Assembly (NCBI GenBank): GCA_016195275.1 | Contig: JACPZZ010000017.1 | Location: 21,581 to 85,580, forward strand | Source: Candidatus Aenigmatarchaeota archaeon | GTDB taxonomy: Archaea > Aenigmatarchaeota > Aenigmatarchaeia > JACPZZ01 | Length of the DNA: 64,000 nt | Direction of reading: 5' to 3' | Shown here: piece after piece, positions 15,728-56,651 of the stretch | Position numbering within the stretch: position 1 is the stretch's first letter | Layout: each line of letters starts with the position of its first letter | Notes under the pieces: model-generated | The model's input: the letters and a program-made list of their open reading frames with translations, nothing else | The model's database searches: none | Told to the model about the DNA's origin: nothing | Made by a program: the position numbers and the translations under genes

Positions 15728-15748
15728 TTCTTGAATAAGCCTCAGGCG
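15728..15748. repeat. attL: 21-bp direct repeat agcctcaggcgagaattgaac (copy of tRNA-Thr 3' end)
   Basis: Identical 21-mer occurs at 56631-56651, where it forms the T-loop/acceptor 3' end of tRNA-Thr. Confidence 0.75.
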
Positions 15749-15850
15749 AGAATTGAACAATTGTCTACCTTACGTGCGTACTTGCTTGAGCAAGTCGCGT
15801 AGGAGGCGAGGTAGAGTCATCATTCCTATTGGCGCTGTCGGCTCATAAGT

Positions 15851-16597
15851 TTGATGCTCAAACCCTTGCATCCACAAAGCGGCAATCGTCCAAGACCGGA
15901 AGCGACGCCTACCAGCCAGGTAGGAGATGACGGTTCGAATCCGCCTTGCCGCATTTCTCTGCGTCTCTGTTCTGACAGGCAGGACTTCGAGGCGTTCCGC
16001 TGGATCATCGACACGTACCACACTTACAAGCCTTGGAAGCCTTCTCCCGGCAGGAAGATCTGCTGGCTTATTGAACGCGAAGGCGAGACCATCGGCTCCA
16101 TCGCAGTCCATAGCGCCGTGCTCACAATCAAGCCGAGAGAAGACTTCATTGGATGGGACCAGAGACAAAAGCTTGTCAACTTGAACAAAGTAGCCAACAA
16201 CTATCGTTTTGCACTCATTGAGCGGGGCGTTGGCTCTCGTGTGCTATCCGAGCTGGAACGTGAGGCCAAACGGGAATGGAAACGGAAATACGGCGATCCG
16301 CTCGTCCTGTTGGAAACTTTTGTCCAGCCGCCCTATGAAGGCACATCGTACAAAGCCGCGAACTGGACCTACATCGGTATGACCAAGGGCTTTGCTGTGA
16401 GGCGCGCCCCCGTCTCATTGTGGAAACGCGCGGGGGGCGAGAGAAAGAAGTTGTGGGAGTCCGATCCACATGCTGCGGCGAAACTGTACGCGGGCTGGAA
16501 TGGCGGCCAGCTTGTCAAAGTCACTCCGACTCCGAAGAAGCACATCTTCGCGCGCCCGCTGCATCGGTATTGGAGACGAGAGTTGCTGCGCGTCTAA
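15851..16597 (+). CDS. hypothetical GNAT-like protein (possibly DUF4338-like), likely 5'-truncated or with mis-assigned start
   Basis: 248-aa ORF; ERGVGSRVLSELEREA resembles GNAT motif A (RxxGxG); the annotated N-terminus overlaps a tRNA-like sequence (15879-15953) and has no in-frame alternative start until far downstream. Confidence 0.4.
   Translation: MMLKPLHPQSGNRPRPEATPTSQVGDDGSNPPCRISLRLCSDRQDFEAFRWIIDTYHTYKPWKPSPGRKICWLIEREGETIGSIAVHSAVLTIKPREDFIGWDQRQKLVNLNKVANNYRFALIERGVGSRVLSELEREAKREWKRKYGDPLVLLETFVQPPYEGTSYKAANWTYIGMTKGFAVRRAPVSLWKRAGGERKKLWESDPHAAAKLYAGWNGGQLVKVTPTPKKHIFARPLHRYWRRELLRV
15879..15953 (+). other. degenerate tRNA-like sequence (Gly-GCC-like) just inside attL
   Basis: 7-bp perfect acceptor stem GCGGCAA/TTGCCGC, anticodon hairpin CCTAC-CAGCCAG-GTAGG, T-arm GACGG-TTCGAAT-CCGCC, discriminator A; mismatches in the D and T stems and A33 suggest a pseudo-tRNA or element-borne tRNA. 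Confidence 0.45.
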
Positions 16598-16635
16598 CTC
16601 ACTGTGCTTATGAATCTGACGGCTCAATATCAATA

Positions 16636-16914
16636 ATGCCAAATCCAACTTTGTACTGGCTTGTCGGCCTGTTCTTGGCCGGAGTCTTGATTGTCGCTGT
16701 TGTCGCTGCGTTGAAGGGTATTTTCTCCGTTGCAATTGCAAGCGTTTCACTGGGTGGCACGATCCTGCTCGCCTATATCCTGATAATACCGGGTGTGCGT
16801 AACATCGCCCTTTATGTCCTCACGTTTCTGCTTGCGGCCATTACAGCGTGGATTGTGCCTCAAGCTCTGAGTGACCTGGTCACGATAGCCACAATTCTAC
16901 CTAAGACACTATAG
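16636..16914 (+). CDS. small membrane protein (about 92 aa, 3 TM)
   Basis: MPNPTLYWLVGLFLAGVLIVAVVAALKG...; strongly hydrophobic; nested in the 3' part of the longer ORF-track ORF 16420-16914. Confidence 0.4.
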   Translation: MPNPTLYWLVGLFLAGVLIVAVVAALKGIFSVAIASVSLGGTILLAYILIIPGVRNIALYVLTFLLAAITAWIVPQALSDLVTIATILPKTL

Positions 16915-16962
16915 GGGATGTTTTACCCATCGCCTGTCGAGGTAATTCCGATTCGCTTTCGT

Positions 16963-17334
16963 TCATGCCACTAATCTATTGATAATCTCTTCGAGGCCAT
17001 TTAGTCCAACTGGTTTCCTTAGCACATGATCGATCCCGGACTTTGAAAGCGCTTCATCGTCGAAGTCTATTAGCCATCCTGTGATCAAAACAATGGGAAG
17101 GTGAGGCATCGTCTCGTGGATTCTCGCAGCGCCCTCGATCCCGTTTTCTCCAGGGAGTCCAAAATTTATGACCACCAGGTCAAACCGCTCTTGTGAAAGC
17201 AGGGTGAAACCCTCATCGGTGTTATGGCACAGGGCAGCATAGGAACCCAAAGAACGAACAGCTTCGCACAGGGTCTCGCCTACTTCCTGGTTATCCTCTA
17301 TTACAAGTATTCTAGCTACCTGTCTGGAACCCAT
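16963..17334 (-). CDS. response regulator, stand-alone receiver (CheY-like) domain
   Basis: 123 aa; VIEDN, DLVVINFGLPGENG (phospho-Asp), VLITG, LRKP, the conserved REC residues; no output domain. Confidence 0.8.
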   Translation of the reverse strand: MGSRQVARILVIEDNQEVGETLCEAVRSLGSYAALCHNTDEGFTLLSQERFDLVVINFGLPGENGIEGAARIHETMPHLPIVLITGWLIDFDDEALSKSGIDHVLRKPVGLNGLEEIINRLVA

Positions 17335-17335
17335 G

Positions 17336-18178
17336 TCACTTGGGTATACAGCCAGATTCCTGGGCTAACGGCAGTGAGATCGTAAAGGCCGAGCCCTGGC
17401 CTGGCACGCTGTTTACCTCTATCTTGCCTCCAAACCTCTCCACCACTTCTCGTGCCAGTGTCAGCCCCAGACCTGTCCCCCGGTTTCCTTTGGTAGTGAA
17501 GAAGGGGTCAAAGATTTTATAGAGCAGCTCCTGGGGAATCCCTATGCCCGTGTCGGATACAACAATTCTCCTAACTGTGCCCCCTATTTCTGTGCTAATA
17601 GTGACGGTCCCCCCTTGGGATGTCAGCGCATCGAAAGCGTTCATGACGATGTTGGCCAAAGCGGTACGAAGTTCGGTTGCTTTCCCTTTTACCAGGCCCT
17701 GGCCTCCCAGGCTGACCTTTAGCTCAACGGGCCTACCCACCACCTCGGTCATCTCCTGGCGGTGAGGCTCGAAGAATTCAGCTACTTCCAGCACGAGCGA
17801 GTCCAGGTCAAGCAGCCCACCGGTCTCATCAAACCGGATATCACCGGATTGCCGCAAACGATTGACGACCTCTGCTGCGCCCAGGGTAGCAGTCCTCGCT
17901 AACTCAAGGTGCCGAAACTCTTTCCAGTCCAAATCGACTCCCATGGCCATGTCTATCCTGGCTAGTATGATGGTCAAGAGGTTATTTAGGTCATGGACTA
18001 CGCCATAGGATATATAGCCCAGATTATAGACTCGGTTTGCCTGTAAGAGTTCCCAGTATAAGGTATCCGAAATCGCTTGCTGTTGGTTCCACAACGATTC
18101 ACCGGGTTCAACGGTTTCCATGTGAATCTTCCCCGCGATGAACAAATTCCTGGCAGACGAACGATACCCAACAGCCAC
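17336..18178 (-). CDS. sensor histidine kinase (HisKA plus HATPase_c), soluble
   Basis: 280 aa; H-box VVHDLNNLL, N/G boxes (GTGLGLTLAREVVERFGGKIEV); no TM segments; 1-nt gap to the downstream receiver gene. Confidence 0.8.
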   Translation of the reverse strand: MAVGYRSSARNLFIAGKIHMETVEPGESLWNQQQAISDTLYWELLQANRVYNLGYISYGVVHDLNNLLTIILARIDMAMGVDLDWKEFRHLELARTATLGAAEVVNRLRQSGDIRFDETGGLLDLDSLVLEVAEFFEPHRQEMTEVVGRPVELKVSLGGQGLVKGKATELRTALANIVMNAFDALTSQGGTVTISTEIGGTVRRIVVSDTGIGIPQELLYKIFDPFFTTKGNRGTGLGLTLAREVVERFGGKIEVNSVPGQGSAFTISLPLAQESGCIPK

Positions 18179-18850
18179 CAGAGAACAGTGTCATGTCTCT
18201 AGACGACGATGTCCGTGGTGTTGGGTATGGGAGCACCAACCGAACCTTGTTATCACACTCCACGGGACCTATTTTACCCAGGGACGCCGGGCTTATCAGC
18301 ATGAGCCCATCATTGGCAATGATGACACTGGAGTTCAAAACCGTACTAACGGTCCCAACTCGACTCCTCAGCAATCTTAAGCCATTCGCGGTGACGCCGA
18401 ACAAGGTTAGGTACGCAAGGATTGACCCTTAGCAGCATTTCTACTGTGGATATACAACGTTCTCAGCAAAGACAACCGCCGTACCAGCAAGGGCTAGCAG
18501 AGCGGCAGTAGCGATGGCAATCCACTTTACGACAACCGGACGAACTTTGCGCATTTGGTTACACCTCCTAATGTTCTTAGGCAAAAACTAACAGGAGGCA
18601 GTAACCATTCGGTAACCAGGTTCAAAGGACAGTCGTGTGCGGAGAGGGCGCAGAATAGGGATTTAGCGGTCCAGACTGCGCCTTACGGTCTCCATAGGTG
18701 ACCACAGAGGCGGTTGGCAAAAAGGCAGGTGTCATGAAGCTCTACTATCTGATAACTGCCGCAAGGAGGAGACTGTGAAACGACCCAAGATAGATAGCCA
18801 AAGGAAATGAAAGTGGAGGATGTACAAGGAGGTCTGTGAACGCAGTCTAG

Positions 18851-21800
18851 CTACGCGGGTGGGGCTTTTGTTAATGCCTGATTGTAGAGGGACAGAAAAT
18901 GGGCTGGGACACTGATACCCAGCTCTGTACGGGCAGCCTTAATGTAGCGCTCCAGATATTTCAGTGATCCGAACCGGTCTCCTAATTTCAGACAAGTCTC
19001 TGCTAGTAGATAATTTGCTTCCTCATTATAGGGGTCCGACTCGACGAGCTTTTCCAGTACCTCAACAGATCGACCCAACTCACCTCTAGCGGTATAGTAT
19101 TTGGCAACGTTCATAAGTGCACGAATGTATTTTATCTCTAGAGAAGTACGTAAACTTTGACACCAGTCTGAGTAGAATTCATTCAGGAAAGGACCTATGT
19201 ACATCTCCATTGCCCTGAGCAGATTCTCCTCTTTGACAGGGCTTTCTTCCTCACATCGCTCAGCAGTCCTTAGGCTTTCTTCAAAGACCTCAAGGTCGAA
19301 ATCTACAGGGCTCTCGGGATTGAAGCAGTATCCATCACCTTTTGAGAGCACGCACCCTGGATAAAGAGCTTGTCTAAGGCGATAGATATTCATCTTTGAT
19401 GCAGCCGCAAAGTTCTCAAGGGTAACATCCGGCCATAGAGCTTCGATGATCTCCTCCTTGGTCACCACTCTTTTGGTACAAAGGAGAAAGTAGAAGAGTT
19501 CCTTGGCCTTGCGGCTTCTCCATTCGGAATCTGTTACCTCGTGTTTGCCCAGGAAAACACTGGCTTGCCCAAAGCTAAAGACCTTCAACGGAGGCAGCGA
19601 TCTCTGAGCAGGAGACGTAGTTCTGTCCGGCTCTGTCAGTTGTGCTCTTTCACTCATTCGTCTCGCTAGTCTCGTGAAAACTCCACCTGCCCCCTTTGCT
19701 GCACCGAATTGAACAAGCTCTGAAACCTGAGCACCATCTGCCAAAAGGAAACCCTCGTAACCGAGTCTTTGCGTGATGTGGTCAAGTTCTCGTAGGCAGA
19801 CTAGGGCTTCCCGAACTTGAGTCAGTTTATAAAAGACAAGTCCCTGGTGCAGTTTTGCCTCTGCCAGGCCCCTTTGACTTCCTACCTCACCGAACATCGC
19901 CTTTGCATCCCCTAGATGCTCTGTAGCCTCTTCAAACGAGCCCATCTGGCAATACACTTTGCCAAGCGAGAGGTGATAGCGAGCGCAGATGTATCTTTCC
20001 CCCGATTGCTCGGCATCGGGAATAGCTTGTTGTAATAACGCCTCAGCTTTGGATAACTCGCCTAAATCTCGATAAGTGTTTCCAAGGCCGTTCACAGCTT
20101 CAGCGATAAGTCGCTGGTCAAGAATGCTCCGGGCCATCTCTAGCCCTTCCAGGAGGCTCGTCAAGGCATCATGGTGGAGCCCGTTAGCTCTCTGCATGAT
20201 CCCTCTGGTGATCAGGACAAAAGCCTGCGTCCAACGTTCTCCAACGGCACGCGCTACTTTGAGAGCTTCGGTAATCTCATCGAGGGCAATATCGAAGTCC
20301 CCTAAATAGTAGTAGACATTGGCGAGGTTATTAAGGGTTAACGGCAAAGCGGTGTTGTTCTCCAGCTTCAACCAGCCCTGTCGTGCCTTCTCTAGATACA
20401 TAGATGCTTTATTCAGTTCTCCTGTCTCGATGTGTACAGCAGCTAGGCCATCATTTATCGTAGAAATGAGCGGCAGATTCTGCTGCGGAGCAATGTTTGA
20501 GGCCAACTCGAAATATTCTTTCGCTCGTTGAAATTCGCCTAGGCCAGCCAGGGCGCTGGCGAGCTGGCGATACGCTTCCGACAGATCCTCTGCCCTTGCA
20601 TTATGTGATCTCAGCACTGCGATGCCCTGCTCCGCTATTTTGACGGCAGCATCAAGCCTTCCCAGAGCCCTGGAAGCAGACGCCTTGTGGACCAGCACCC
20701 GTCCGGCGGTTGCCCAATCGTTTCCCTCTGCTATTGCAGTAGCTTTATCGAATTCTTCCATTGCCCGGGCAGGGTCGCCTGACCTGAGTAACACTGCCCC
20801 TCTAACCATCAGGATATGGGGGTCCCTCTCAGACAACTCGCGAGGAAGGAGATCTAGCCAGGCAGTCAGGGTCTGCCACTTTCGTTCCTGAAGGTATCTG
20901 TCAGCCACCTGTCTGATTATTTGGGCCGCCCCTTCTGCTTCGCCAGCCTTTGTCAGATGTCTGATAGCTGCATCGTGGTTTCCCACCTGCTGGAACAGGG
21001 AGCCTGCTCTCTGGTTAAACGCCTTATATGACTCAGGTTTCTCACTACTGAACTTCCTTTCCAGATATTCCCTGAAAAGGTCATGGTACCTGTAAACCGA
21101 GTCTTCACTGCCACGTTCCTCAAGGAACAGGCCTCTCTCTTTTATCTCGTGGATCAACTGACTGGAATGAGCTAGGTTAAGCAGATTGTCACAGAGCCTC
21201 ACACTGAACTCTTTCAGGATGGACGTTTGCAGAAGGAAAGATTTGAGACGTTCGGGAAGCCCATTGAAAACTTCCTGGGTCAAGTAATCGAAGAAGACAC
21301 TTTCATTGAGGCTGGCTAAAGTCGGCGATAGAGCGTCTCTTGAGCGTGTCCTGGCGGTCAGCAATACACCTGTGACCCAGCCACCAGTACGCGTGGCTAC
21401 TTCTTGAGCTTCTTCTGTTGGCACGGACCTTTCCCAGACACTGGATAGGGCTTCAGCGATTTCTTCCACAGAAAGGCGCAGAGTCTCGTTATCAAGCCAG
21501 GAGACGTCATCTTGGGCTACAAGTTTAGGTAGACAACTAATAGACGGCTTTGTTCTGCTTGCAATGAGGAAGTGGACATTGGACGGGGAACGCTCTATGA
21601 GTAAAGACAGAGCTTCTTTCAATGCTGACTTTGTATCTATGTGGTGTACGTCATCAAATATGAAGAGTAATTTGCCCTCAACCTTGTTATGAAACGCAGT
21701 TACCAGCAGGCCAACCAGGGTGCGCCAATCTGCCGTGGACGTTCGTATGAGCCAATTCACATCCCCTTTATTACCATCCTTAAACCGACTTTCAAGGGTT

Positions 21801-22057
21801 CTTACACAATATCGGAGAAACTCTAGAGGTTCATTGTCTTCAGGAGTAAAGGAGTACCAGCACACCGGAAAATCTGAATCTGAGATAAAGTCCACGAGTA
21901 GAGTTGTTTTTCCGTAGCCAGCAGGTGCCCAGAGAATCTGAACTCTTCTGTCGAGACCTGATTTTACAATATCAAGCGGCTTCGTCCGGCGGATAATACC
22001 TTCCCGCCGCTTCGGTATAAGGATCTTCGTGATGAACGGTAAATCAGTGGTTATCAA
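18851..22057 (-). CDS. MalT-like STAND ATPase - TPR repeats - C-terminal SARP module (OmpR-type wHTH plus BTAD)
   Basis: 1068 aa; N-terminal Walker A ILWAPAGYGKTTLL as in MalT/LAL regulators; extensive TPR-like helical repeats; C-terminal LKVFSFGQASVFLGKHEVTDSEW...LWPD (trans_reg_C) plus a BTAD-like helical tail. Confidence 0.75.
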   Translation of the reverse strand: MITTDLPFITKILIPKRREGIIRRTKPLDIVKSGLDRRVQILWAPAGYGKTTLLVDFISDSDFPVCWYSFTPEDNEPLEFLRYCVRTLESRFKDGNKGDVNWLIRTSTADWRTLVGLLVTAFHNKVEGKLLFIFDDVHHIDTKSALKEALSLLIERSPSNVHFLIASRTKPSISCLPKLVAQDDVSWLDNETLRLSVEEIAEALSSVWERSVPTEEAQEVATRTGGWVTGVLLTARTRSRDALSPTLASLNESVFFDYLTQEVFNGLPERLKSFLLQTSILKEFSVRLCDNLLNLAHSSQLIHEIKERGLFLEERGSEDSVYRYHDLFREYLERKFSSEKPESYKAFNQRAGSLFQQVGNHDAAIRHLTKAGEAEGAAQIIRQVADRYLQERKWQTLTAWLDLLPRELSERDPHILMVRGAVLLRSGDPARAMEEFDKATAIAEGNDWATAGRVLVHKASASRALGRLDAAVKIAEQGIAVLRSHNARAEDLSEAYRQLASALAGLGEFQRAKEYFELASNIAPQQNLPLISTINDGLAAVHIETGELNKASMYLEKARQGWLKLENNTALPLTLNNLANVYYYLGDFDIALDEITEALKVARAVGERWTQAFVLITRGIMQRANGLHHDALTSLLEGLEMARSILDQRLIAEAVNGLGNTYRDLGELSKAEALLQQAIPDAEQSGERYICARYHLSLGKVYCQMGSFEEATEHLGDAKAMFGEVGSQRGLAEAKLHQGLVFYKLTQVREALVCLRELDHITQRLGYEGFLLADGAQVSELVQFGAAKGAGGVFTRLARRMSERAQLTEPDRTTSPAQRSLPPLKVFSFGQASVFLGKHEVTDSEWRSRKAKELFYFLLCTKRVVTKEEIIEALWPDVTLENFAAASKMNIYRLRQALYPGCVLSKGDGYCFNPESPVDFDLEVFEESLRTAERCEEESPVKEENLLRAMEMYIGPFLNEFYSDWCQSLRTSLEIKYIRALMNVAKYYTARGELGRSVEVLEKLVESDPYNEEANYLLAETCLKLGDRFGSLKYLERYIKAARTELGISVPAHFLSLYNQALTKAPPA

Positions 22058-24996: not shown

Positions 24997-25540
24997 TCAA
25001 GAGCAGTCTCGCCAACTTATCCAAAACAGGATCGAGTCCAACAAATGCGCGTGCTTCACCCATGCGCAAAACCTCTTGCGGCTCCGCTACCCTGTCAACA
25101 CTATGCACCGAGTCCGGCTCATCGAGGACCCGTTCATCTTCGCCTGGCTCCTGGAAAAGCGCAGGAAGCTCTCCTTCTTCGCTTTCCGCTCTCCCAACAC
25201 GTCTGGGTCCAGCTTTCTGTTCATTTTCTCTATGGAGGCCCTGGGATAACTGGGCATCCTCGTCTGCTTCACGACTTCCCTCAAGCTTGGGCTTCGGGGT
25301 AGGCTGGGTGGGACAGCCTACGGCATCAGCCCGTTCCTCGTCAATAGGGATAGCAGTATTGCTTTCTCTTTCTACTTCCACTTTCTCAGAGGAACTCTCC
25401 CCGGCTGGCCAGAGGGAAAGTTGCATAGCCCTGATTTGCTTCTTGCCAAGGCGTTGTGCCCGGCTTTCAAGCTGGCCCTCCTCTGTTTTCCCGACTCGCC
25501 GCCGGGTGTCCGTCTTGCGCTCTTTCATTCTCTGTTTCAC
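24968..25540 (-). CDS. hypothetical acidic protein
   Basis: 190-aa Glu/Arg-rich ORF immediately upstream of, and overlapping, the serine recombinase start; low complexity. Confidence 0.35.
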   Translation of the reverse strand: MKQRMKERKTDTRRRVGKTEEGQLESRAQRLGKKQIRAMQLSLWPAGESSSEKVEVERESNTAIPIDEERADAVGCPTQPTPKPKLEGSREADEDAQLSQGLHRENEQKAGPRRVGRAESEEGELPALFQEPGEDERVLDEPDSVHSVDRVAEPQEVLRMGEARAFVGLDPVLDKLARLLLSDLEKQEPK

Positions 25541-25557
25541 GCCGACCTGTTTCTGGT

Positions 25558-26830: not shown

Positions 26831-26833
26831 GGG

Positions 26834-31017: not shown

Positions 31018-31027
31018 CGTTCACCTC

Positions 31028-42394: not shown

Positions 42395-42418
42395 CTTTGA
42401 GGGCAGTGTGGTAAGCTG

Positions 42419-50701: not shown

Positions 50702-50920
50702 TCAACCACTACAACCCCCTGCCTCTGCCCAGCCGCAACGCACAAACTGCACGATCCCGCAATGCTCCAACAGCGTCGCATCGTGCGCACTGCTGTAAAC
50801 GAGTCGTATTCCGGCGGCACCGCAGAAACCGCACCACACCCGACCGTCTCCGGTCCTCTTGCACCTCGGCAATACCTGAACCATCGCCCGGCCGTTGATC
50901 GTGACCACGCTGTCGCTCAT
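50702..50920 (-). CDS. small Cys-containing protein (cassette copy 2, gene B)
   Basis: About 72 aa from MSDSVVTINGRAMVQVLPRCKRTGDGRVWCGFC...; paralog of 36341-36577. Confidence 0.45.
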   Translation of the reverse strand: MSDSVVTINGRAMVQVLPRCKRTGDGRVWCGFCGAAGIRLVYSSAHDATLLEHCGIVQFVRCGWAEAGGCSG

Positions 50921-51282
50921 ACGTTGCAGCCACCGCAGGACACACACGTCGTCGGGATCGCTTCTCTTGTGCCGCTTATCTTGGGACACCTGCAATGTTC
51001 GCAGTCGCACAGTTCGTCGGCCGGGCGGCGTCTCCCCGACCATACGAGCGCCCGCTTTGGTATCTCCCAAATCCGACCGCCAAGAGACTTTAGCTCGGAC
51101 TCACGGAAGTAACCCCACTTCTCCTCGAAGCCCTGCACGAACCCGAAGTACAAGACATCGGCGTCTGTCTTCTCAGTGATCTCGGTTGCAAACCAGTACC
51201 AGCCGCCGAAGCTCTCGAAGCCTTTGATGACCTCCTCGCCGTCGATGTACAGCTTTCCATCTTTGTCCTCAAACTTTGGCAT
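50917..51282 (-). CDS. conserved hypothetical protein with C-terminal zinc ribbon (cassette copy 2, gene A)
   Basis: About 121 aa from MPKFEDKDGKLYIDGEEVIKGFESFGGWYWFATE...ADELCDCEHCRCPKISGTREAIPTTCVSCGG; about 80% identical to copy 1. Confidence 0.55.
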   Translation of the reverse strand: MPKFEDKDGKLYIDGEEVIKGFESFGGWYWFATEITEKTDADVLYFGFVQGFEEKWGYFRESELKSLGGRIWEIPKRALVWSGRRRPADELCDCEHCRCPKISGTREAIPTTCVSCGGCNV

Positions 51283-51461
51283 TCCTAACACGCTCCTTAG
51301 GCGACCTTCTTCGAGGCCACCTCTACTTGCGTGCTTACTTCTTGATCGTTGCCCCCTGCGGGGGCCAGGGGCGGAGTGGGGGTATTGGCCTTGATGGTGT
51401 GAACGCACAATATGCCTAGCTCGACGAAGGAGAGCGGCTTATGTGCGTTCAGCACGACGCA

Positions 51462-51505: not shown

Positions 51506-52852
51506 CTATTCAGTTGTCCGACCGCAGGTCGACACTTCGACATCGCTTCTCTTCTCACTGATCCTTTTGGCCGCCATCTGCACGTATTCCGGCTTGAGGT
51601 CCACGCCCCCGAAGTTACGGCCAAGCGCGGCTGCCACAACACCGACTGTTCCAGACCCCATGAACGGGTCGAGCACCAGCGCGGGCGCAATTTCCGAACC
51701 TGAGCATTGGCAGGTAGCCTGCCATCCCAGGGTGCGCGTCGTCCTGAGTCTTCTCACTTCATAAGGCCGGGCAGCACCCCCCAGAAGCGGCACGCCTTTT
51801 CGAGTCATGTTGTTGTTCCCCCGGCCAGCGTCCACATAAGAGACGGAAACTTTTCGGCGCCGGGGAGCGCCACATGAAGAACAGCATCCTGCCTCGCTGC
51901 TGCCAGTCAGGATGCACCGCCTTGCCAGCGCCTCCGGAAACGTTGCGAAATGCGCACCAGGAAAGGGCTGTGTCGGAATGGTCCACACGCTACGAATGTT
52001 CCTGCCCCGACCGTCGTCCGACCACGGTACGCAGCTCGCGATGTGGCGGTTCGTTCTCGACCGCTCCCCAAGTTTGGCAACGAAGCGCCGAACATTCCCG
52101 CTGCTTTTGTCCTTCTCTACGACAGGCTCCCTGGCAGCCTCCTGGTCGAACAGATAGGTCGCGCTTTTGGTCAGCAAGAAAACGTACTCGTGCGCCTTGG
52201 TGGGTCTGTCGCGCACGCTCTCCGGCATGGGATTCGGTTTTGCCCAAATGACATCGGATCGAAGCCACCACCTGTCCGCCTGCAAAGCGAACGCAACACG
52301 CCAGGGCATACCCACAAGGTCCTTCGGCTTGAGGCCGGAACCTTTGCGGTTGTACGGCCTGAGATAGGTATCGCCTTTCTTCCCGTCCCTGAAGTCGCCG
52401 CCAGGAGAACCGCTGCCCGCGTAGCAGTCACCCAGGTTCAGCCAGAACGTCCCGTCGCTTCTGAGAACCCGCCAGACTTCCCTGGCCACCTCGGTGATGT
52501 GCTGGACGTACATCTCCGGTGTATGCTCCAACCCAAGCGATCCTCGCCACGCAGTGCAGAGCGAGCAGAAAGCACTGGGTTGTGGCGCACACGCGGTAGC
52601 ATGGACCTTGCCAGGATCAAATCGGCCTCCACTGTACCAACCGTTCGTATTTCCTCCGCTTCCTAACTTCGTGGACGGAGGCTTACCATTGCCCCATTGA
52701 TGAACGCATCCGGCATCGCCTCCCCAAACGCTCGGCGGCAGACCGTAATCGCGCAACCCCCAATACGGCGGGCTGGTTACCACGCAATGGACGCTTCCAT
52801 CTTTGAGAGGGAGGTGACGAGCGTCACCGACATATAGTTGGCTCCGGAGCAA
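51506..52852 (-). CDS. DNA methyltransferase, N6-adenine/N4-cytosine type (beta class; motif IV before motif I)
   Basis: 448 aa; VVTSPPYWGLRDY (motif IV, SPPY) near the N-terminus and LDPFMGSGTVGVVA (motif I) near the C-terminus; no adjacent restriction endonuclease recognised. Confidence 0.8.
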   Translation of the reverse strand: MLRSQLYVGDARHLPLKDGSVHCVVTSPPYWGLRDYGLPPSVWGGDAGCVHQWGNGKPPSTKLGSGGNTNGWYSGGRFDPGKVHATACAPQPSAFCSLCTAWRGSLGLEHTPEMYVQHITEVAREVWRVLRSDGTFWLNLGDCYAGSGSPGGDFRDGKKGDTYLRPYNRKGSGLKPKDLVGMPWRVAFALQADRWWLRSDVIWAKPNPMPESVRDRPTKAHEYVFLLTKSATYLFDQEAAREPVVEKDKSSGNVRRFVAKLGERSRTNRHIASCVPWSDDGRGRNIRSVWTIPTQPFPGAHFATFPEALARRCILTGSSEAGCCSSCGAPRRRKVSVSYVDAGRGNNNMTRKGVPLLGGAARPYEVRRLRTTRTLGWQATCQCSGSEIAPALVLDPFMGSGTVGVVAAALGRNFGGVDLKPEYVQMAAKRISEKRSDVEVSTCGRTTE

Positions 52853-53718: not shown

Positions 53719-54714
53719 ATGCTTATGGACGCAGCAAGTGCTCTCAAACTCTTTAATGAGAAGGCAAAGAAGTTAGAAGGCCTCAGCTTCACAAAAATGC
53801 TGGCTGAACAGAAAACAGGCGTCACGCTCTCAGGGAAACAAGGGCATCCTTTAACCATAGAGCGCTCCGGCCCCGGCGATGAAGCCATAGATGCTTTCGT
53901 ACTTACACTGAGATTCTTCGTCCAGGACAACGAAAGTATATCACTGAGGAATTTCGCACATCTTTACGCGGGTCTACCTGTTGATCAGGAACTGATTGAC
54001 AACTTCAACGCTGCCAGGGACGCCTTGAACAGCTTTCTCGACAACAAGCCGCTCGTCGTTGTCCTTGATGAGATCGACAAGGCCCAGCCCAAGGACCAGA
54101 GCTCCATCCTCTACACGCTTTCGGAGCTTGAGAACGCAGGAGTCGTTTGCATTTCCAACAGCCGCGCGACCCTTCTGTCTCTTGATGACAGGGTGAAGTC
54201 GCGGCTGAACTCAGTCTTCATCGGCTTCGACCCGTACAACAATGATGAACTTCGACGCATCCTCGAGGCCAGGGCAGGGCACGCGCTCTTTCCTGGCTGT
54301 TTTGTGCCGGAGATTCTTGACCGGATTGCCGGACTTTCTGGTGGCGATGCCCGTGTCGCAATTCAAACGCTGAGACAGGCCGCGCAGCTAGCCGAGGTCC
54401 AGGGCACCCGCACCATCGCTGCTGACCACATCGAGCACGGCGTTGTCACCGTGCGCACCCTGCGGACCCAGTATGCCCTGAACAAGCTGACTGAGCATCA
54501 CCGCATACTGTTCACTATCGTCTCCTCTGCCCGTGAGATCACGAACATCGCGCTGTGGGTAGCCTACATCGAGAAATGCAAGGAGACGAGCAAGACTCCG
54601 ATTGCTGATCGCACGTTTCGGGCCTATCTGAATACCCTGGTCTCGCAGGGCCTCGTGTTGAGGGAGCGCTTGGCCGAGCCTGGCGCTCTGTTCCGTTTCC
54701 GGCCGTGCGCGTGA
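53719..54714 (+). CDS. Orc1/Cdc6-like protein lacking the Walker A P-loop (degenerate paralog)
   Basis: 331 aa; Walker B VVVLDEIDKAQPKDQSSILYTL, sensor ISNSRATLL, GGDARVAIQTL and C-terminal wH all align to Cdc6; no GxxGxGKT, and an in-frame stop lies just upstream of the ATG. Confidence 0.6.
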   Translation: MLMDAASALKLFNEKAKKLEGLSFTKMLAEQKTGVTLSGKQGHPLTIERSGPGDEAIDAFVLTLRFFVQDNESISLRNFAHLYAGLPVDQELIDNFNAARDALNSFLDNKPLVVVLDEIDKAQPKDQSSILYTLSELENAGVVCISNSRATLLSLDDRVKSRLNSVFIGFDPYNNDELRRILEARAGHALFPGCFVPEILDRIAGLSGGDARVAIQTLRQAAQLAEVQGTRTIAADHIEHGVVTVRTLRTQYALNKLTEHHRILFTIVSSAREITNIALWVAYIEKCKETSKTPIADRTFRAYLNTLVSQGLVLRERLAEPGALFRFRPCA

Positions 54715-55016
54715 GTCGGCAAGGTCGCTTGCCAGCGGTTATTAGCCAGCGCGGGCGAATCTCTGCCGTGACAAAAGAATCGTCTCGTTCCGATGATGCG
54801 TCGATCAACTCGCTGGCATTGAGCATCCTCGCTCGGCTGGCAGCTAGGCTACCCTGCCAAGGGTGCGTACCCTTCCCGGTGGTGTTCAGCAGGATATGCC
54901 CTGAGCTTTGTATCAAGAAGTCCGAGGCCTGGGCTGTACTGAAGAGCCTCAGGGCTTCAGGCTCGATAGAAATCGTTCCGTTCCACGGGATCCGCATCAA
55001 AGGTGATCGGGGTTGA
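54705..55016 (+). CDS. small wHTH-like protein
   Basis: 103 aa; C-terminal AWAVLKSLRASGSIEIVPFHGIRIK resembles a winged-helix; overlaps the Cdc6-like gene end. Confidence 0.4.
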   Translation: MRVSRQGRLPAVISQRGRISAVTKESSRSDDASINSLALSILARLAARLPCQGCVPFPVVFSRICPELCIKKSEAWAVLKSLRASGSIEIVPFHGIRIKGDRG

Positions 55017-55294
55017 GGAAAGAGGACCTCGTTAATGAACTGAACGATCTGTTGGAAATGGAACACCCGATCAGCGTGTGGCAGTGTTTGCAGATCAGGA
55101 AATACGAACTCGAGGAGATTGTTTCAAAGGTGAGGCTCCTCCATGACTCCTCGCGCGGGTATTCAAGGAGCGCCGGCATTGACACTCCTGTGGATGACCA
55201 AGCGTATCGGCAGCCCCGTGCCTTAACGCAAGTCCAATACAACGCGGCTCCGACGCCGTACAGGCGTAGACCCAAAGGTGGGGACGGCCTATGA
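55013..55294 (+). CDS. hypothetical protein
   Basis: 93-aa ORF, start overlaps the upstream stop. Confidence 0.3.
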   Translation: MRKEDLVNELNDLLEMEHPISVWQCLQIRKYELEEIVSKVRLLHDSSRGYSRSAGIDTPVDDQAYRQPRALTQVQYNAAPTPYRRRPKGGDGL

Positions 55295-55382
55295 ACGATG
55301 TCGGCGTGAAGAAATTCTCCACGATGAAAGAGCTTCTCGAATACATTGAAACGGAAGCGAAGAGGCGCGCTGCACAGCAAGC

Positions 55383-56582
55383 TTAAGCCTTCAACAGTTT
55401 CGTCTTCAGAATCTCTTCTACGCGCACCTCTATCATCTTGTCGATCATTTCGGGTGTCAGGAGTTTTAGCACCTGCTGCTCTCTGTCCTCCAACTCAAAC
55501 AGACCCTTCACCGAGATCGCTCTGCTGCACTGGACACAAAAATCCGCACTTAGCGAGTTTTCAGTTTTGCAGAACGTGCAAACCGTAGTGCTAACGACCC
55601 CGAGGGCACGCTTCTCTCGCTGTTCGATTGAGTGCTGTTTCAATACATACTCCTCAACTTGCTTCTCTGCCAGGTGTTCATAGAATCTGAATGCCTTGCT
55701 TTCTACCGAGTGCCCTACGAGTTTCTTTATCATTATCTCGTTCCATCCAGCTTCGAGCAGATGTGTGATCCTGCTGTGCCGTAGAAGATAGGAGTACACT
55801 CGCTTCTCCATACCTAACTTTTTGGCCGTCCTCTTGAGAGTGACGTTGAATCCCTCCGGTTGTAGAAACTGCTTGGTTAGGTAGCTCACATAGCTTGACG
55901 GAAAGAGAGGCGCATTCTGATCGCGCCTCAATGGGTGGACGTTGAGCCAAGCCCTCAAATAGCGATCAGAGTCCATTGCGAAGATCGTCCTCGTGAAAGT
56001 CTTGCTCTCCCGCAAGAAAATCCTTGTGTACCCTTCTGTGGATTTGAGACTTCCAACAGTAAGGGTGAGCAACTCCGATGGTCTTGCTGCGGTTTCATAC
56101 GCAAGCGCAAAAAGACATTTGTACATCGGACTGTGGACCGCGTTAACAAGTTGTTCCACTTCATCCTTGGTTAGCAGGTCGTTGTAGGTGATATCGAATT
56201 TCCTCGGCCCGTTTCTTTTCGTCTTGATCCAACGATATTTCTCAGGATTGAAGCTGTCACCCAGAACAAATTTCAGGAGTCGCTTCACCGCAATCTTGTA
56301 GTCATTCATTGTCCATGCCGCAAGACCTCGCGCGGTGATTTGCGCGAGTGCCGCCTCAATATCTCGGTTGTCGAGGTCGGCGTAGTCTTTCTTCATGGCA
56401 ATGGTGAGGTCGCGTAGGAGGATCAGATACTTCTTGATGCGGCCAAGAGAGATGCCTTCGGCGCGGAGCCTCTGTGCAAAGGCTGCCAGGGTCTCTGCGT
56501 TGTTGGGCGAGATTTCCGGCATGACGCGAATCTGGCACAGCACACGCTCGTAATCCTTGTTGCTCCTATAGAACGAATCCAT
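55383..56582 (-). CDS. int: tyrosine recombinase / integrase with C-terminal zinc ribbon
   Basis: 399 aa; N-terminal SAM-like core-binding domain, catalytic region with LRHSRITHLL (HxxR) and downstream Tyr; C-terminal CTFCKTEN...CVQC; adjacent to tRNA-Thr/attR. Confidence 0.85.
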   Translation of the reverse strand: MDSFYRSNKDYERVLCQIRVMPEISPNNAETLAAFAQRLRAEGISLGRIKKYLILLRDLTIAMKKDYADLDNRDIEAALAQITARGLAAWTMNDYKIAVKRLLKFVLGDSFNPEKYRWIKTKRNGPRKFDITYNDLLTKDEVEQLVNAVHSPMYKCLFALAYETAARPSELLTLTVGSLKSTEGYTRIFLRESKTFTRTIFAMDSDRYLRAWLNVHPLRRDQNAPLFPSSYVSYLTKQFLQPEGFNVTLKRTAKKLGMEKRVYSYLLRHSRITHLLEAGWNEIMIKKLVGHSVESKAFRFYEHLAEKQVEEYVLKQHSIEQREKRALGVVSTTVCTFCKTENSLSADFCVQCSRAISVKGLFELEDREQQVLKLLTPEMIDKMIEVRVEEILKTKLLKA

Positions 56583-56630
56583 GCAATTACATGGGTCAGT
56601 CTGCTAATAAAAGATATACACTTGTTCAAA

Positions 56631-56651
56631 GCCTCAGGCGAGAATTGAACT
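56631..56651. repeat. attR: 21-bp direct repeat agcctcaggcgagaattgaac within the tRNA-Thr 3' end
   Basis: Identical to 15728-15748. Confidence 0.75.

What the first reader, a model, noticed from the sequence alone, without database searches (positions are those of the whole stretch)
15728..56651. A ~40.9-kb GC-rich integrative element sits in the 3' end of an archaeal tRNA-Thr, bounded by exact 21-bp direct repeats
The 21-mer agcctcaggcgagaattgaac occurs at 15728-15748 and again at 56631-56651, where it forms the T-loop/acceptor 3' end of a tRNA-Thr(GGU). A tyrosine integrase (55383-56582) lies next to the intact tRNA. Between the repeats, base composition shifts visibly from AT-rich to GC-rich. 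The cargo is plasmid/virus-like: an Orc1/Cdc6 initiator, a degenerate Cdc6, a serine recombinase, an IS, Abi/TA modules, a DNA methyltransferase, two STAND NTPases and many unknowns. This is the accessory region of the window. The GC contrast and bacterial-flavoured cargo (two-component system, SARP module, AGGAGG ribosome-binding sites) suggest acquisition from a compositionally distant donor.
Basis: partly seen in the sequence, partly recalled or inferred. Interest (0 to 1): 0.75.

Follow-up and report, generated by a model that had tools for sequence, protein, structure and literature searches.

The report
Mobile element inserted in archaeal tRNA-Thr
A 40.9-kb foreign, GC-richer mobile element with its own integrase has inserted into the end of a threonine tRNA gene of a tiny DPANN archaeon (Aenigmatarchaeota); this is a textbook integration, notable mainly for its host and its poorly known replication genes.

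Summary
The finding holds. The right copy is the 3' end of an intron-containing tRNA-Thr(GGU) (56630-56732, minus). An intact tyrosine integrase (55383-56582) starts 47 bp beyond it. GC jumps from 0.45 to 0.53 exactly at the repeats.

A related Aenigmatarchaeota genome (JACQNZ010000004.1) has purD, tRNA-Thr and the window's left-flank genes adjacent: an empty site. In one sample (SRR12113410), two independent contigs break and overlap by k-1 exactly at the inner edge of the left repeat. This suggests occupied and empty alleles coexist.

No capsid, terminase or conjugation genes are detectable, so I class it as a cryptic, plasmid-like integrative element. Its backbone is the integrase, a short Orc1/Cdc6-like initiator plus a Walker-A-less paralogue, a HerA-family ATPase with a wHTH/nuclease-like tail, DUF2958-like proteins and a large serine recombinase. 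The integrase/Cdc6/HerA trio recurs in metagenome contigs of GC 0.35-0.71, one beside a bacterial tmRNA.

Cargo is defence- and regulation-like. The RBS argument for a bacterial donor is not supported. It is a new member of a known kind.

The parts
15737..15758 (.). Distal att copy (22-bp direct repeat), the int-far boundary of the element. To its left lies the original host sequence downstream of the tRNA.
   Evidence: The left flank is colinear with the sequence downstream of tRNA-Thr in L013.
56629..56650 (.). tRNA-proximal att copy. It comprises the last 21 nt of tRNA-Thr plus one base.
56630..56732 (-). Host tRNA-Thr(GGU), intact, with a 30-nt intron at a non-canonical position in the 5' strand of the anticodon stem.
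   Evidence: Rfam 52.9 bits. Aligned with Aenigmatarchaeota and intron-less Thr(GGT) tRNAs.
55383..56582 (-). Tyrosine integrase, 399 aa and uninterrupted, with a C-terminal CxxC...CxxC extension.
   Evidence: Pfam PF00589 at 4.5e-22. NCBIfam XerA_Arch at 3.7e-26, below its cut-off. Alignment to XerA 4a8e shows Arg, LRH, GHS and the Tyr nucleophile, with Tyr in place of His II. Sequence.
53719..54714 (+). Second Orc1/Cdc6-like gene. It lacks Walker A but retains Walker B, the lid and the winged helix.
   Evidence: Cdc6_lid at 1e-13. TIGR02928 at 125 bits, below the 181.3 cut-off. No Walker A motif found.
51506..52852 (-). N6/N4 DNA methyltransferase (cargo; no restriction partner was identified).
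   Evidence: PF01555 at 7e-41. PADLOC MTase_II at 2.8e-88.
50702..51408 (-). DUF2958-like gene pair, a paralogue of 36341-37083.
   Evidence: 300-nt repeat at 84% identity (D1). Homologues lie next to Cdc6 in L054, L055, L063 and L064. The L064 homologue matches PF11171 at 8e-15.
49110..50372 (-). Nucleoside-phosphorylase-superfamily protein resembling defence-system effectors (cargo).
   Evidence: PNP_UDP_1 at 9e-10. PADLOC 'Effector PN-superfamily' at 2.3e-9.
43969..45015 (-). Short Orc1/Cdc6-family initiator (348 aa, Walker A GNPGTGKT), the putative replication initiator of the element.
   Evidence: TIGR02928 at 197.2 bits, above the 181.3 cut-off. Pfam hits. It belongs to a clade of roughly 347-aa homologues.
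42795..43643 (-). Conserved 282-aa protein of unknown function that accompanies the Cdc6-like gene.
   Evidence: Homologues lie adjacent to Cdc6 in L044 and L049. No Pfam or PADLOC hit.
40984..42739 (+). AbiEi-like / AbiEii toxin-antitoxin pair plus a UPF0175 antitoxin-like gene (cargo).
   Evidence: AbiEii/DUF6036. PADLOC AbiEii at 3e-5 and AbiEi at 0.009, which is weak. UPF0175 at 1.5e-12.
39270..40752 (+). IS701-family insertion sequence with 20-bp terminal inverted repeats.
   Evidence: Inverted repeat I4. NCBIfam transpos_IS701 at 1.1e-29 and 103.9 bits, below the curated 150-bit cut-off. Ends read; no clear target duplication seen.
32409..35675 (+). NACHT/STAND NTPase (cargo). It is inserted relative to the syntenic relative L010.
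   Evidence: NACHT at 4.6e-8. PADLOC Avs2 at 7e-7, partial. Absent between the flanking homologues in L010.
24968..32525 (-). Conserved backbone block of small soluble ORFs around the HerA-like ATPase. Together with 35724-37083 it is syntenic with L010.
   Evidence: blastp synteny with L010 and L011. No PHROG or Pfam functions found.
27740..29899 (-). HerA/FtsK-superfamily P-loop ATPase (Walker A GAPGTGKS) with a C-terminal winged-helix plus PD-(D/E)xK-like domain.
   Evidence: The family profile hits PDB HerA/DUF87 at 1e-32 and 2e-31. DUF87 is found in 19 of 31 family members. Only the C-terminal 510-710 of the model is confident, and its fold matches are weak.
23287..24996 (-). Large serine recombinase (Resolvase + Recombinase + zinc ribbon).
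   Evidence: Pfam at 4.7e-31, 5.4e-24 and 2e-9. A serine recombinase sits at the same syntenic position in L010.
16963..22057 (-). Regulatory cargo: receiver-only response regulator (16963-17334), HATPase_c kinase (17336-18178), and a STAND-like ATPase-TPR protein with C-terminal Trans_reg_C + BTAD, i.e. SARP-like (18851-22057).
15854..16597 (+). DruA/DUF4338-like ORF, apparently truncated at its 5' end. Its first 40 codons overlap a tRNA-Gly(GCC)-like sequence at 15879-15953.
   Evidence: PF14236 at 2e-15, matching profile positions 57-219 of 297. tRNA model at 35.6 bits, with A33 and mispaired D and T stems.

Best explanation
This is an integrated mobile genetic element of 40,892 bp (repeat start to repeat start) in the chromosome of an Aenigmatarchaeota (DPANN) archaeon.

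How it got there (inferred from the anatomy): a circular form carried an attP whose 22-bp core is identical to the 3' end of the host tRNA-Thr(GGU). The element's own tyrosine integrase recombined attP with that tRNA end (attB). The element was thereby inserted immediately downstream of an unchanged tRNA, and the 22-bp core was duplicated at the far end. The integrase gene stays whole, so this is not the self-splitting SSV type. Excision should therefore be possible by the reverse reaction.

Backbone (inferred functions): I take the element to be a cryptic, plasmid-like integrative element rather than a virus or a conjugative element. Its backbone is the integrase, a short Orc1/Cdc6-like initiator with a Walker-A-less paralogue, a HerA-family ATPase fused to a wHTH/nuclease-like domain, DUF2958-like proteins and a large serine recombinase. 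The Cdc6-like and HerA-like proteins are proposed to start and drive replication of the excised circle. The serine recombinase is proposed to resolve multimers.

Cargo: the rest appears to have accreted. It comprises a NACHT NTPase, a SARP-like STAND regulator with a kinase and receiver pair, AbiE and UPF0175 toxin-antitoxin genes, a nucleosidase-like effector, an orphan methyltransferase and an IS701-family element.

Shown versus inferred: the insertion, its exact boundaries, the foreign composition, the empty site in a relative and the gene families are shown. The replication roles, the current activity and the donor are inferred.
For: Boundaries
- An exact 22-bp repeat occurs only twice in the window.
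- The right copy is the 3' end of a tRNA identified as Thr(GGU).
- The integrase start codon lies 47 bp beyond the tRNA end, on the same strand.
- GC and tetranucleotide profiles switch at the repeats.

Empty site
- L013 (Ca. Aenigmatarchaeota JACQNZ010000004.1) has purD, then tRNA-Thr with an intron, then 78 bp later the homologue of w15095-15628 (88.7% aa identity), followed by homologues of w14679-15098, w13958-14398, w11777-12769 and w10285-11733.
- The reconstructed attB aligns colinearly with L013. The left flank matches L013's downstream sequence at 230 of 331 positions, against 154 of 341 for the island side.
- L016, L024 and L025 also show purD followed by tRNA-Thr, with no integrase homologue in the fetched loci. 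For L024 and L025 the short stretch read downstream of the tRNA is AT-rich. L016's locus ends 85 bp beyond the tRNA.

Assembly independence
- Logan contigs from SRR12113409 span the left junction (18.5 kb) and the right junction.
- In SRR12113410 the flank contig L003 ends at window position 15758, and the island contig L009 starts 30 nt earlier. That is a k-1 overlap exactly at the end of the shared sequence, i.e. a graph branch.

Integrase family
- A 63%-identical integrase (L004) sits directly after the 3' end of a tRNA-Cys-like sequence. This tRNA is called by ARAGORN, but no Rfam match reached the gathering threshold.
- Both junctions share GTTCAA-N15-TTGAACAAGTGT.

Backbone family
- L010 is syntenic over 24968-32206 plus 35724-37083 and ends with a serine recombinase.
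- Among 38 metagenome loci with the short Cdc6, 16 carry a homologue of this integrase and 13 a homologue of the HerA-like ATPase, in several loci on adjoining genes.
- tRNA or tmRNA genes lie beside several of these loci.

Not viral or conjugative
- No viral hallmark appears in Pfam or PHROGs.
- No relatives turn up in IMG/VR, the phage records or the plasmid records.
- Membrane proteins are almost absent in the ATPase block.
Against: - No excised circle (attP) or attB read was observed directly. The polymorphism is inferred from where two contigs break, and only at the left junction.
- About half of the ORFs have no detectable homology, so an unrecognisable archaeal virus module cannot be excluded. 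The ATPase has a weak PHROG hit annotated 'terminase large subunit' (1.4e-10, partial).
- The ATPase structure model is poor (pLDDT 49), and the nuclease-like tail rests on weak fold matches.
- The HerA-like and Cdc6-like genes could be a defence pair riding on the element rather than its replication machinery. There is a weak PADLOC hit to mad8 at 3.4e-9.
- GC sub-structure (0.56-0.60 at 25-32 kb and 50-55 kb, against about 0.50 elsewhere) and a second recombinase leave room for a composite origin.
- A tRNA-Gly-like sequence at the distal end is unexplained.
Confidence: 0.85

Rival explanations
1. It is a provirus. The 25-32 kb block of small ORFs with a FtsK/HerA-type ATPase would be a morphogenesis and packaging module of an unknown archaeal virus that integrates through the tyrosine integrase.
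For: - FtsK/HerA-superfamily ATPases package DNA in some archaeal viruses, according to the review text in PMC6563490.
- The ATPase has a partial PHROG 'terminase large subunit' hit at 1.4e-10.
- The family profile weakly matches the STIV B204 packaging ATPase at 2.6e-7.
- Many ORFs are unassignable.
Against: - No capsid, portal, tail or protease family appears in Pfam or PHROGs.
- No relative of the integrase, the ATPase or the att junction exists in IMG/VR, and none of the ATPase in the phage records. A Cdc6 profile found only one distant IMG/VR hit (22% identity, in a giant-virus MAG).
- At 719 aa with a wHTH/nuclease tail, the ATPase is three times the size of the roughly 210-aa packaging ATPases. 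Its best profile matches are cellular and defence HerA proteins.
- In related loci the ATPase is paired with Cdc6 and the integrase, not with structural genes.
Confidence: 0.08
2. It is a composite of two mobile elements. One would be mobilised by a serine recombinase (roughly 23.3-37 kb: recombinase, HerA block, DUF2958-like genes). It would be nested in, or fused to, a tyrosine-integrase element that targets the tRNA.
For: - A large serine recombinase sits at the same end of the HerA block in the window and in L010.
- The GC profile is stepped.
- The DUF2958-like gene pair is duplicated at 36.3-37.1 kb and 50.7-51.4 kb, as if two related backbones were present.
- Nested elements are documented in archaea (NitEve-E7 within NitEve-E6, PMC6563490).
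Against: - There is no third copy of the tRNA core and no other long direct repeat bounding an inner segment.
- The HerA-like gene is linked to the Cdc6-like and tyrosine-integrase genes in many independent loci that lack any serine recombinase. The HerA block and the Cdc6/integrase part therefore belong to one backbone family.
- The same 40-nt upstream motif occurs in both parts, at 27.5, 37.1, 46.3 and 52.9 kb.
Confidence: 0.15
3. It is an integrative conjugative element. The HerA/VirB4-like ATPase would power a DNA-transfer apparatus.
For: - There are weak hits to AAA_10 and to a VirB4 model at 1.5e-5.
- The family profile matches a VirB4-like protein (4ag5, 2.6e-13) and TrwB/TraG-type domains in a few members.
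Against: - No VirB6, VirB2, TraG or relaxase families were found.
- Only two small ORFs in the island have multiple predicted membrane helices: 31609-31980 at the edge of the ATPase block, and 16636-16914 near the distal end.
- The best matches are HerA rather than VirB4.
- The C-terminal wHTH/nuclease architecture is not that of VirB4.
Confidence: 0.04
4. It is an assembly or binning artefact. A GC-rich contig from another organism would have been joined to the Aenigmatarchaeota contig through a shared tRNA-like 22-mer.
For: - The source is a metagenome-assembled genome.
- The 21-mer is shared by tRNA-Thr genes of several archaeal phyla.
- The composition differs sharply between island and flanks.
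Against: - Independent Logan assemblies cross both junctions.
- The 30-nt overlap between contigs L003 and L009 implies an assembly word size of about 31, which is longer than the 22-bp repeat. The repeat alone therefore should not merge two unrelated paths. I infer this word size from the overlap; I have not seen it documented.
- The arrangement is the canonical one, tRNA then core then integrase, with the core repeated at the far end.
- The host sequence resumes exactly where the empty site of L013 predicts.
Confidence: 0.02

Closest known systems
Cryptic integrated elements (CIE) and other tRNA-targeting integrated MGEs of archaea, as catalogued in Thaumarchaeota (Krupovic et al. 2019, PMC6563490)
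   Same: - Integration by a tyrosine recombinase into the 3'-distal part of a tRNA gene, including intron-containing tRNAs.
- Short att repeats (median 17 bp in that study).
- Some of those elements encode Cdc6/Orc1-like replication initiators.
- No viral or conjugative signature genes.
- Sizes from 2.6 to 98 kb.
All.
   Different: - The host phylum here is DPANN Aenigmatarchaeota.
- The specific backbone differs: a short Cdc6 plus a Walker-A-less paralogue, a HerA-wHTH-nuclease-like ATPase, DUF2958-like proteins and a large serine recombinase. I found no description of it in four literature searches, which were not exhaustive.
Non-partitioning archaeal integrases (pNOB8 type, from my own knowledge) versus SSV-type 'suicidal' integrases (PMC7253208 abstract)
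   Same: It behaves like the non-partitioning type. attP lies outside the integrase gene, so the gene is intact in the integrated state.
   Different: - I did not place the protein phylogenetically among named archaeal integrase families.
- Its nearest solved relative is XerA (4a8e, E 4e-10).
- Word-based search found only 8 homologues besides itself.
- It is not SSV-type, because the gene is not split.
Integrase-associated horizontal transfer reported in hot-spring 'Ca. Aenigmarchaeota' MAGs (Li et al. 2021, PMC8407114)
   Same: An integrase with neighbouring defence genes (restriction-modification) of apparently foreign, euryarchaeal affinity was found in an Aenigmarchaeota genome. It was interpreted as integrase-mediated gene transfer.
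   Different: The passages I read describe no att sites, tRNA target or empty site. The gene content differs. Here the boundaries are resolved to the base, and the element is about 41 kb.
Bacterial tRNA/tmRNA-targeting genomic islands, and SCC-type elements (large serine recombinases plus a self-encoded AAA+ replication helicase)
   Same: - The logic of tRNA or tmRNA 3'-end targeting is the same. One family member lies near a bacterial tmRNA.
- As in SCC, a large serine recombinase coexists with AAA+ replication-type proteins. There are weak NCBIfam hits to CcrB (6e-28) and Cch1 (3.8e-4), both far below their cut-offs.
   Different: - Integration here is attributed to the tyrosine integrase and targets a tRNA, not rlmH.
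- The CcrB and Cch1 matches are far below family thresholds.
- It is not a member of the SCC family.

Membership tests
Site-specific integrative element at a tRNA gene (tyrosine-recombinase type) | Encodes a tyrosine recombinase with the catalytic Arg...Arg...His...Tyr set | tested here: met
   PF00589 at 4.5e-22 and 79 bits, above the 27.1 cut-off. Alignment to XerA 4a8e shows the Arg of ARPSEL, LRH, GHS and the Tyr of FYEH. His II is replaced by Tyr.
Site-specific integrative element at a tRNA gene (tyrosine-recombinase type) | Bounded by direct repeats, one of which is the 3' end of an intact tRNA gene | tested here: met
   22-bp exact repeat, only two copies. The right copy is nt 83-103 of tRNA-Thr plus one base.
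Site-specific integrative element at a tRNA gene (tyrosine-recombinase type) | Related genomes show the unoccupied target, with the two flanks adjacent | tested here: met
   L013 has purD, tRNA-Thr and the homologue of w15095-15628 within 80 bp of the tRNA end.
Site-specific integrative element at a tRNA gene (tyrosine-recombinase type) | Excision to a circle (attP) and regeneration of attB | tested here: inconclusive
   Only indirect evidence: contigs L003 and L009 of SRR12113410 break with a 30-nt overlap exactly at the end of the repeat. The attB 41-mer is absent from JGI metagenome contigs, and the attP/attL 32-mer is absent from IMG/VR. Raw reads could not be searched.
SSV-type (self-partitioning) archaeal integrase elements | attP lies inside the integrase gene, so integration splits the gene in two | tested here: not met
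   The integrase ORF is continuous at 399 aa, and the att core lies 47 bp outside it. The definition is taken from the PMC7253208 abstract.
Provirus | Capsid, portal/terminase or other virion hallmark genes | tested here: not met
   None found in Pfam or PHROGs for the ORFs scanned. The only candidate is a partial 'terminase' PHROG hit on a HerA-family ATPase. No close IMG/VR relatives for the three backbone queries and no phage-record match for the ATPase. Divergent archaeal capsids could escape these tests.
Integrative conjugative element | VirB4 plus coupling protein, membrane channel or pilin genes, and a relaxase | tested here: not met
   The ATPase is HerA-like rather than VirB4. No other transfer families were found. 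Only two small ORFs have multiple predicted membrane helices.
Orc1/Cdc6 replication initiators | AAA+ module with Walker A and B, Cdc6 lid and C-terminal winged helix, scoring above the family cut-off | tested here: met
   43969-45015 scores 197.2 bits on TIGR02928, above the 181.3 cut-off, and has Walker A GNPGTGKT. It is short at 348 aa and only about 30% identical to cellular and plasmid Orc1. The paralogue 53719-54714 fails: 125 bits and no Walker A.
HerA/FtsK-superfamily ATPases | P-loop core matching the HerA central (DUF87) and C-terminal domains | tested here: met
   The single sequence gives only weak hits. The 31-member family profile gives 8yho at 1.3e-32 and Sulfolobus HerA 4d2i at 2.4e-31. 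DUF87 is found in 19 of 31 members.
Known anti-phage systems (Druantia, Avs, AbiE, MADS) | The complete gene set of the system | tested here: not met
   - Druantia: only a truncated DruA-like ORF, with no DruB-E.
- Avs: the NACHT protein matches Avs2 only over 130 residues.
- AbiE: AbiEii matches, but AbiEi is marginal at E 0.009.
- MADS: a mad8-like hit at 3.4e-9, alone.
These genes are defence-like cargo, not demonstrated systems.

The most novel reading that the evidence does not exclude
The island may be one member of an undescribed, widespread family of tRNA/tmRNA-targeting integrative elements. The family backbone would be a roughly 400-aa tyrosine integrase, a short (about 347 aa) Orc1/Cdc6-like initiator, and a roughly 700-aa HerA-family ATPase fused to a wHTH/nuclease-like domain.

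The family would cross the archaea-bacteria divide. Its loci span GC 0.35-0.71. Cdc6 homologues are labelled Nitrososphaerota, Helarchaeota and Infirmifilum, but also Planctomycetota, Aminicenantes and Thermodesulfobacteriota. One locus sits beside a bacterial tmRNA.

The elements would replicate with a Cdc6-loaded HerA-type motor instead of MCM or DnaB.

Because the 21-nt attB core is identical in tRNA-Thr genes of Aenigmatarchaeota, Micrarchaeota, Altiarchaeota and Methanomicrobiales, one such element could shuttle genes between a DPANN symbiont and unrelated archaea.
Probability: 0.3. Interest if true: 0.7.

Novelty: new member of a known kind. Interest (0 to 1): 0.45.

Why it matters
Integration of mobile elements into tRNA 3' ends is textbook biology, so the mechanism itself is not news.

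What is useful here is a base-resolved, well-controlled example in a DPANN archaeon. It has an occupied site, an empty site in a relative, and a probable within-sample polymorphism.

DPANN archaea have small genomes (general knowledge). Roughly 41 kb of foreign DNA loaded with defence-like and regulatory genes would therefore be a sizeable share of such a genome. The element makes up one third of its 123-kb contig.

It also gives an entry point to a recurrent integrase/short-Cdc6/HerA-like gene trio that seems to be spread across very different hosts. If that trio is a replication module used in both domains, it would be a new replicon type worth testing.

The identical attB core in several archaeal phyla suggests a concrete route for inter-phylum gene flow involving symbionts.

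Tried and rejected
- ARAGORN. With default settings it misses the tRNA-Thr. With the canonical-intron option it forces a false 'tRNA-Gly(TCC)' with a 6-nt intron. I rejected this in favour of the Rfam alignment and the comparison with intron-less Thr(GGT) tRNAs.
- purD protein scan of GTDB genomes found nothing. The 21-mer DNA scan succeeded instead.
- Exact attB 41-mer in JGI metagenome contigs: no hit.
- attP/attL 32-mer in IMG/VR: no hit.
- Integrase and ATPase against IMG/VR: no relatives. ATPase against plasmid and phage records: no match. The HerA family alignment was too divergent for a pattern scan.
- The AlphaFold model of the ATPase from a 3-sequence alignment was poor (pLDDT 49), so the fold search is informative only for the C-terminal domain.
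- I searched for a second copy of either end of the tRNA-Gly-like sequence, to test for a nested tRNA-Gly integration. None was found.
- Shine-Dalgarno usage as a sign of a bacterial donor showed no difference between island and host.
- Tetranucleotide distance to other loci puts the island closest to related element loci (L049 at 0.150, L010 at 0.174). Among the cellular loci it is closest to the two GC 0.52-0.53 Altiarchaeota loci (0.20-0.21). I regard this as too crude to name a donor.
- The ORFs 54997-55380 and 54539-55066 next to the integrase have implausible, low-complexity translations. The opposite-strand ORFs have no Pfam hit. No excisionase was identified.
- An extra 282-aa ORF between purD and tRNA-Thr in L013 looked endonuclease-like by eye but has no Pfam hit.

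Full report
**Observation**

No other copy appears even at three mismatches, and none is expected by chance. The stated coordinates were off by 10 nt on the left and 1 nt on the right. The identity is 22 bp (15737-15758 and 56629-56650, spacing 40,892 bp).

Rfam finds a tRNA on the minus strand at 56630-56732 (52.9 bits). Its last 21 nt are the repeat. The gene is 103 nt long because 30 nt are inserted in the 5' strand of the anticodon stem. That is a non-canonical intron position.

Default ARAGORN therefore misses the gene, and with the intron option it mis-folds it. Its anticodon loop TTGGTAA and both exons align with intron-less tRNAs that ARAGORN calls Thr(GGT) and that end in the same 21 nt. 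The same intron-bearing gene occurs in other Aenigmatarchaeota MAGs. The tRNA-Thr(GGU) assignment stands.

**Composition**

The flanks have GC 0.448 and the interval between the repeats 0.533. In 250-bp bins the step is 0.36 to 0.53 at 15749 and 0.52 to 0.41 at 56641. Tetranucleotide profiles change in the same 2-kb windows.

The flanks resemble other Aenigmatarchaeota loci (L1 distance 0.12-0.17), whereas the island does not (0.36-0.46).

**Host and empty site**

NCBI holds the integrase and the ATPase as proteins of a 'Candidatus Aenigmarchaeota archaeon' MAG, on a 123,381-bp contig.

A scan of GTDB species genomes for the 21-mer returned 17 loci. In L013 (JACQNZ010000004.1, Ca. Aenigmatarchaeota) the purD start is followed by the intron-containing tRNA-Thr. 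Then, 78 bp after the tRNA end, comes the homologue of the window's left-flank gene 15095-15628 (88.7% aa identity). It is followed in order by homologues of 14679-15098, 13958-14398, 11777-12769 and 10285-11733.

A reconstructed attB, made of the window tRNA joined to the window left flank, aligns colinearly with L013. The island side does not.

Three more loci (L016, L024, L025; the last two labelled Aenigmatarchaeota) keep purD followed by tRNA-Thr, with no integrase homologue in the fetched sequence. In L024 and L025 the short stretch read downstream of the tRNA is AT-rich.

**Independent assemblies and polymorphism**

Logan assemblies of SRR12113409 cross the left junction (18.5-kb contig, from the flank to the serine recombinase). 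They also cross the right junction (purD, tRNA and the integrase N-terminus).

In SRR12113410 the flank contig L003 stops at window position 15758. The island contig L009 begins 30 nt earlier, so the two overlap by the 30-mer tcttgaataagcctcaggcgagaattgaac. A k-1 overlap that ends on the last base shared by attR and attB is what a de Bruijn graph produces when two continuations exist after the repeat.

I read this as occupied and empty alleles coexisting in that sample. It is an inference, since I could not see the alternative branch or the reads.

**Integrase and att anatomy**

ORF 55383-56582 (minus, 399 aa) is a tyrosine recombinase (PF00589, 4.5e-22). It is closest to archaeal XerA among solved structures. 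Arg, LRH, GHS and the Tyr nucleophile are conserved, with Tyr in place of His II. It has a C-terminal CxxC...CxxC tail.

Its start codon is 47 bp beyond the tRNA end on the same strand, and the gene is unbroken. The element is therefore not of the SSV type, in which integration splits the integrase gene (PMC7253208 abstract).

Word-based search finds only eight homologues besides itself. The closest with DNA available (63% identity, L004) lies immediately after the 3' end of a tRNA-Cys(GCA)-like sequence. ARAGORN calls this tRNA, but no Rfam match reached the gathering threshold. Both junctions read GTTCAA-N15-TTGAACAAGTGT. That is a 6-bp inverted repeat formed by the tRNA T-loop and element DNA, around a 15-nt spacer. 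I propose these as the core-type binding half-sites (inference).

**Gene content**

- Orc1/Cdc6 at 43969-45015 (TIGR02928 at 197 bits, above its cut-off).
- A second Cdc6-like gene at 53719-54714 without Walker A.
- A large serine recombinase at 23287-24996.
- An IS701-family element at 39270-40752 with 20-bp inverted repeats (the NCBIfam match is below its curated cut-off).
- AbiEii with a marginal AbiEi, and a UPF0175 gene.
- An N6/N4 methyltransferase.
- A NACHT NTPase at 32409-35675.
- An ATPase-TPR-Trans_reg_C-BTAD (SARP-like) protein at 18851-22057.
- A kinase and receiver pair at 16963-18178.

Further genes are a nucleoside-phosphorylase-like protein resembling defence effectors (49110-50372) and a truncated DruA-like ORF (15854-16597).

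None of the defence-like genes amounts to a complete known system.

Shine-Dalgarno-like motifs are no more frequent before island genes (11 of 44) than before host genes (4 of 22). That argument for a bacterial donor fails.

**Backbone versus cargo**

The 719-aa protein at 27740-29899 gives only weak single-sequence hits. However, it belongs to a family with 2,125 cluster representatives. The family profile matches HerA/DUF87 structures at 1e-32 and 2e-31. Its members carry DUF87 or HerA_C.

Only the C-terminal 200 residues of the model are confident. They look like a winged helix plus a PD-(D/E)xK-type domain, but the fold matches are weak.

A JGI contig (L010, GC 0.575, ATPase 71% identical) is syntenic with 24968-32206 and with 35724-37083. 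It ends in a large serine recombinase at the same position. The NACHT gene is an insertion relative to L010.

The Cdc6-like protein belongs to a clade of roughly 347-aa proteins. Cellular and plasmid Orc1 proteins are only about 30% identical to it.

Among 38 JGI loci carrying this short Cdc6, 16 also have a homologue of this integrase (E down to 2e-50). Thirteen have the HerA-like ATPase (E down to 1e-130), in several loci on adjoining genes, as HerA-Cdc6-Int in L035 and L064 (see also L030 and L031).

Other island ORFs recur beside Cdc6 in these loci:
- The 282-aa gene 42795-43643.
- The 161-aa gene 26834-27319.
- The duplicated 36574-37083 / 50917-51408 genes, which connect to DUF2958 through a homologue in L064.

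The loci span GC 0.35-0.71. Four have a tRNA next to the element genes, and one (L068) has a bacterial tmRNA 3.7 kb from the integrase.

The named Cdc6 homologues come from archaeal and from bacterial MAGs.

**Interpretation**

The island is a single integrative element. Its backbone is the integrase, the two Cdc6-like genes, the HerA-like ATPase block, the DUF2958-like genes and the serine recombinase. This backbone has been inflated by cargo.

No virion or conjugation genes are detectable. Only two small ORFs in the island have several predicted membrane helices. No relative appears in IMG/VR beyond one distant Cdc6 hit, and the ATPase has no match in the phage or plasmid records.

It therefore fits the 'cryptic integrated element' class defined for Thaumarchaeota. 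That class shows tRNA 3'-end targeting, intron-containing targets, short att sites and Cdc6/Orc1 initiators (PMC6563490). Integrase-linked transfer into Aenigmarchaeota has also been noted before (PMC8407114).

I propose that the Cdc6-like and HerA-like proteins replicate the excised circle, and that the serine recombinase resolves multimers. These roles are untested. The alternative that HerA and Cdc6 form a defence pair cannot be excluded.

**Rivals**

- Provirus: possible only if the capsid is unrecognisable.
- Composite of two elements: supported by the second recombinase, the GC steps and the duplicated gene pair. It is opposed by the family-level linkage of HerA with Cdc6 and the integrase, by a shared 40-nt upstream motif in both halves, and by the absence of internal att repeats.
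- Integrative conjugative element: no apparatus genes were found.
- Assembly artefact: refuted by independent assemblies and by the empty-site geometry.

**Verdict**

This is a new member of a known kind. The points of wider interest are the DPANN host and the recurrent, possibly cross-domain integrase/Cdc6/HerA-like backbone. A further point is an attB core that is identical in tRNA-Thr genes of Aenigmatarchaeota, Micrarchaeota, Altiarchaeota and Methanomicrobiales. The donor is not identified.

Noticed in passing
window 15879-15953 (+): A tRNA-Gly(GCC)-like sequence lies 120 bp inside the int-distal end of the island. It has a perfect acceptor stem but A33 and mispaired D and T stems (Rfam 35.6 bits). 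It overlaps the first 40 codons of the DruA-like ORF. It could be a relic of an earlier attachment site or donor chromosome, or an element-borne tRNA-like signal.
   Followed up: partly
window 27480-27520, 37142-37182, 52898-52920, 46259-46281 (partial): A roughly 40-nt motif, GGCACCGACAACCTTCGGTTTTCCGTGCTCGGCTTTCCCTCC on the minus strand, contains a small AACC/GGTT hairpin. It is repeated upstream of several minus-strand genes across the island. It may be a shared promoter, operator or 5' leader.
   Followed up: partly
window 36341-37083 and 50702-51408: A duplicated two-gene unit (300 nt at 84% identity). The larger ORF is a distant DUF2958 relative. Its homologues sit next to the short Cdc6 gene in several metagenome loci.
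   Followed up: partly
window 56630-56732; L013, L016, L024, L025: The Aenigmatarchaeota tRNA-Thr(GGU) carries a 30-32-nt intron inside the 5' strand of the anticodon stem. Two intron variants occur among relatives. Standard ARAGORN misses the gene in the window, and with its intron option mis-calls it.
   Followed up: partly
L013 175-1023: In the empty-site relative, an extra 282-aa ORF sits between purD and tRNA-Thr and reads into the 5' half of the tRNA. It has no Pfam hit and is absent from the window.
   Followed up: partly
window 13958-15628: The host flank next to the insertion site is itself toxin-antitoxin-like. It holds a Fic/DOC protein (13958-14398) and a nucleotidyltransferase (15095-15628) with an overlapping 139-aa partner (14679-15098). 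These genes are conserved in L013.
   Followed up: no
L068 (Ga0114930_10010960) 935-6449: A homologue of the window integrase and the short Cdc6 lie 3.7 kb from a bacterial tmRNA gene (182 bits). This backbone family is therefore also present in bacteria.
   Followed up: partly
L001 (SRR12113409 contig), window 56432: The independent Logan contig carrying purD and the tRNA breaks inside the integrase gene rather than at the att site. The full-length integrase is not on record in Logan gene calls. A related integrase or a strain variant in the sample may be the cause.
   Followed up: no
window 39270-40752: An IS701-family insertion sequence inside the island has 20-bp terminal inverted repeats (19 of 20 complementary). 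No obvious target-site duplication is visible at its ends.
   Followed up: partly
L017, L028 (Altiarchaeota MAG loci): Two Altiarchaeota loci share the 21-nt attB core. They have GC (0.52-0.53) and tetranucleotide composition closer to the island than any other cellular locus fetched (distance 0.20-0.21). This is a weak lead to a possible donor or alternative host.
   Followed up: no
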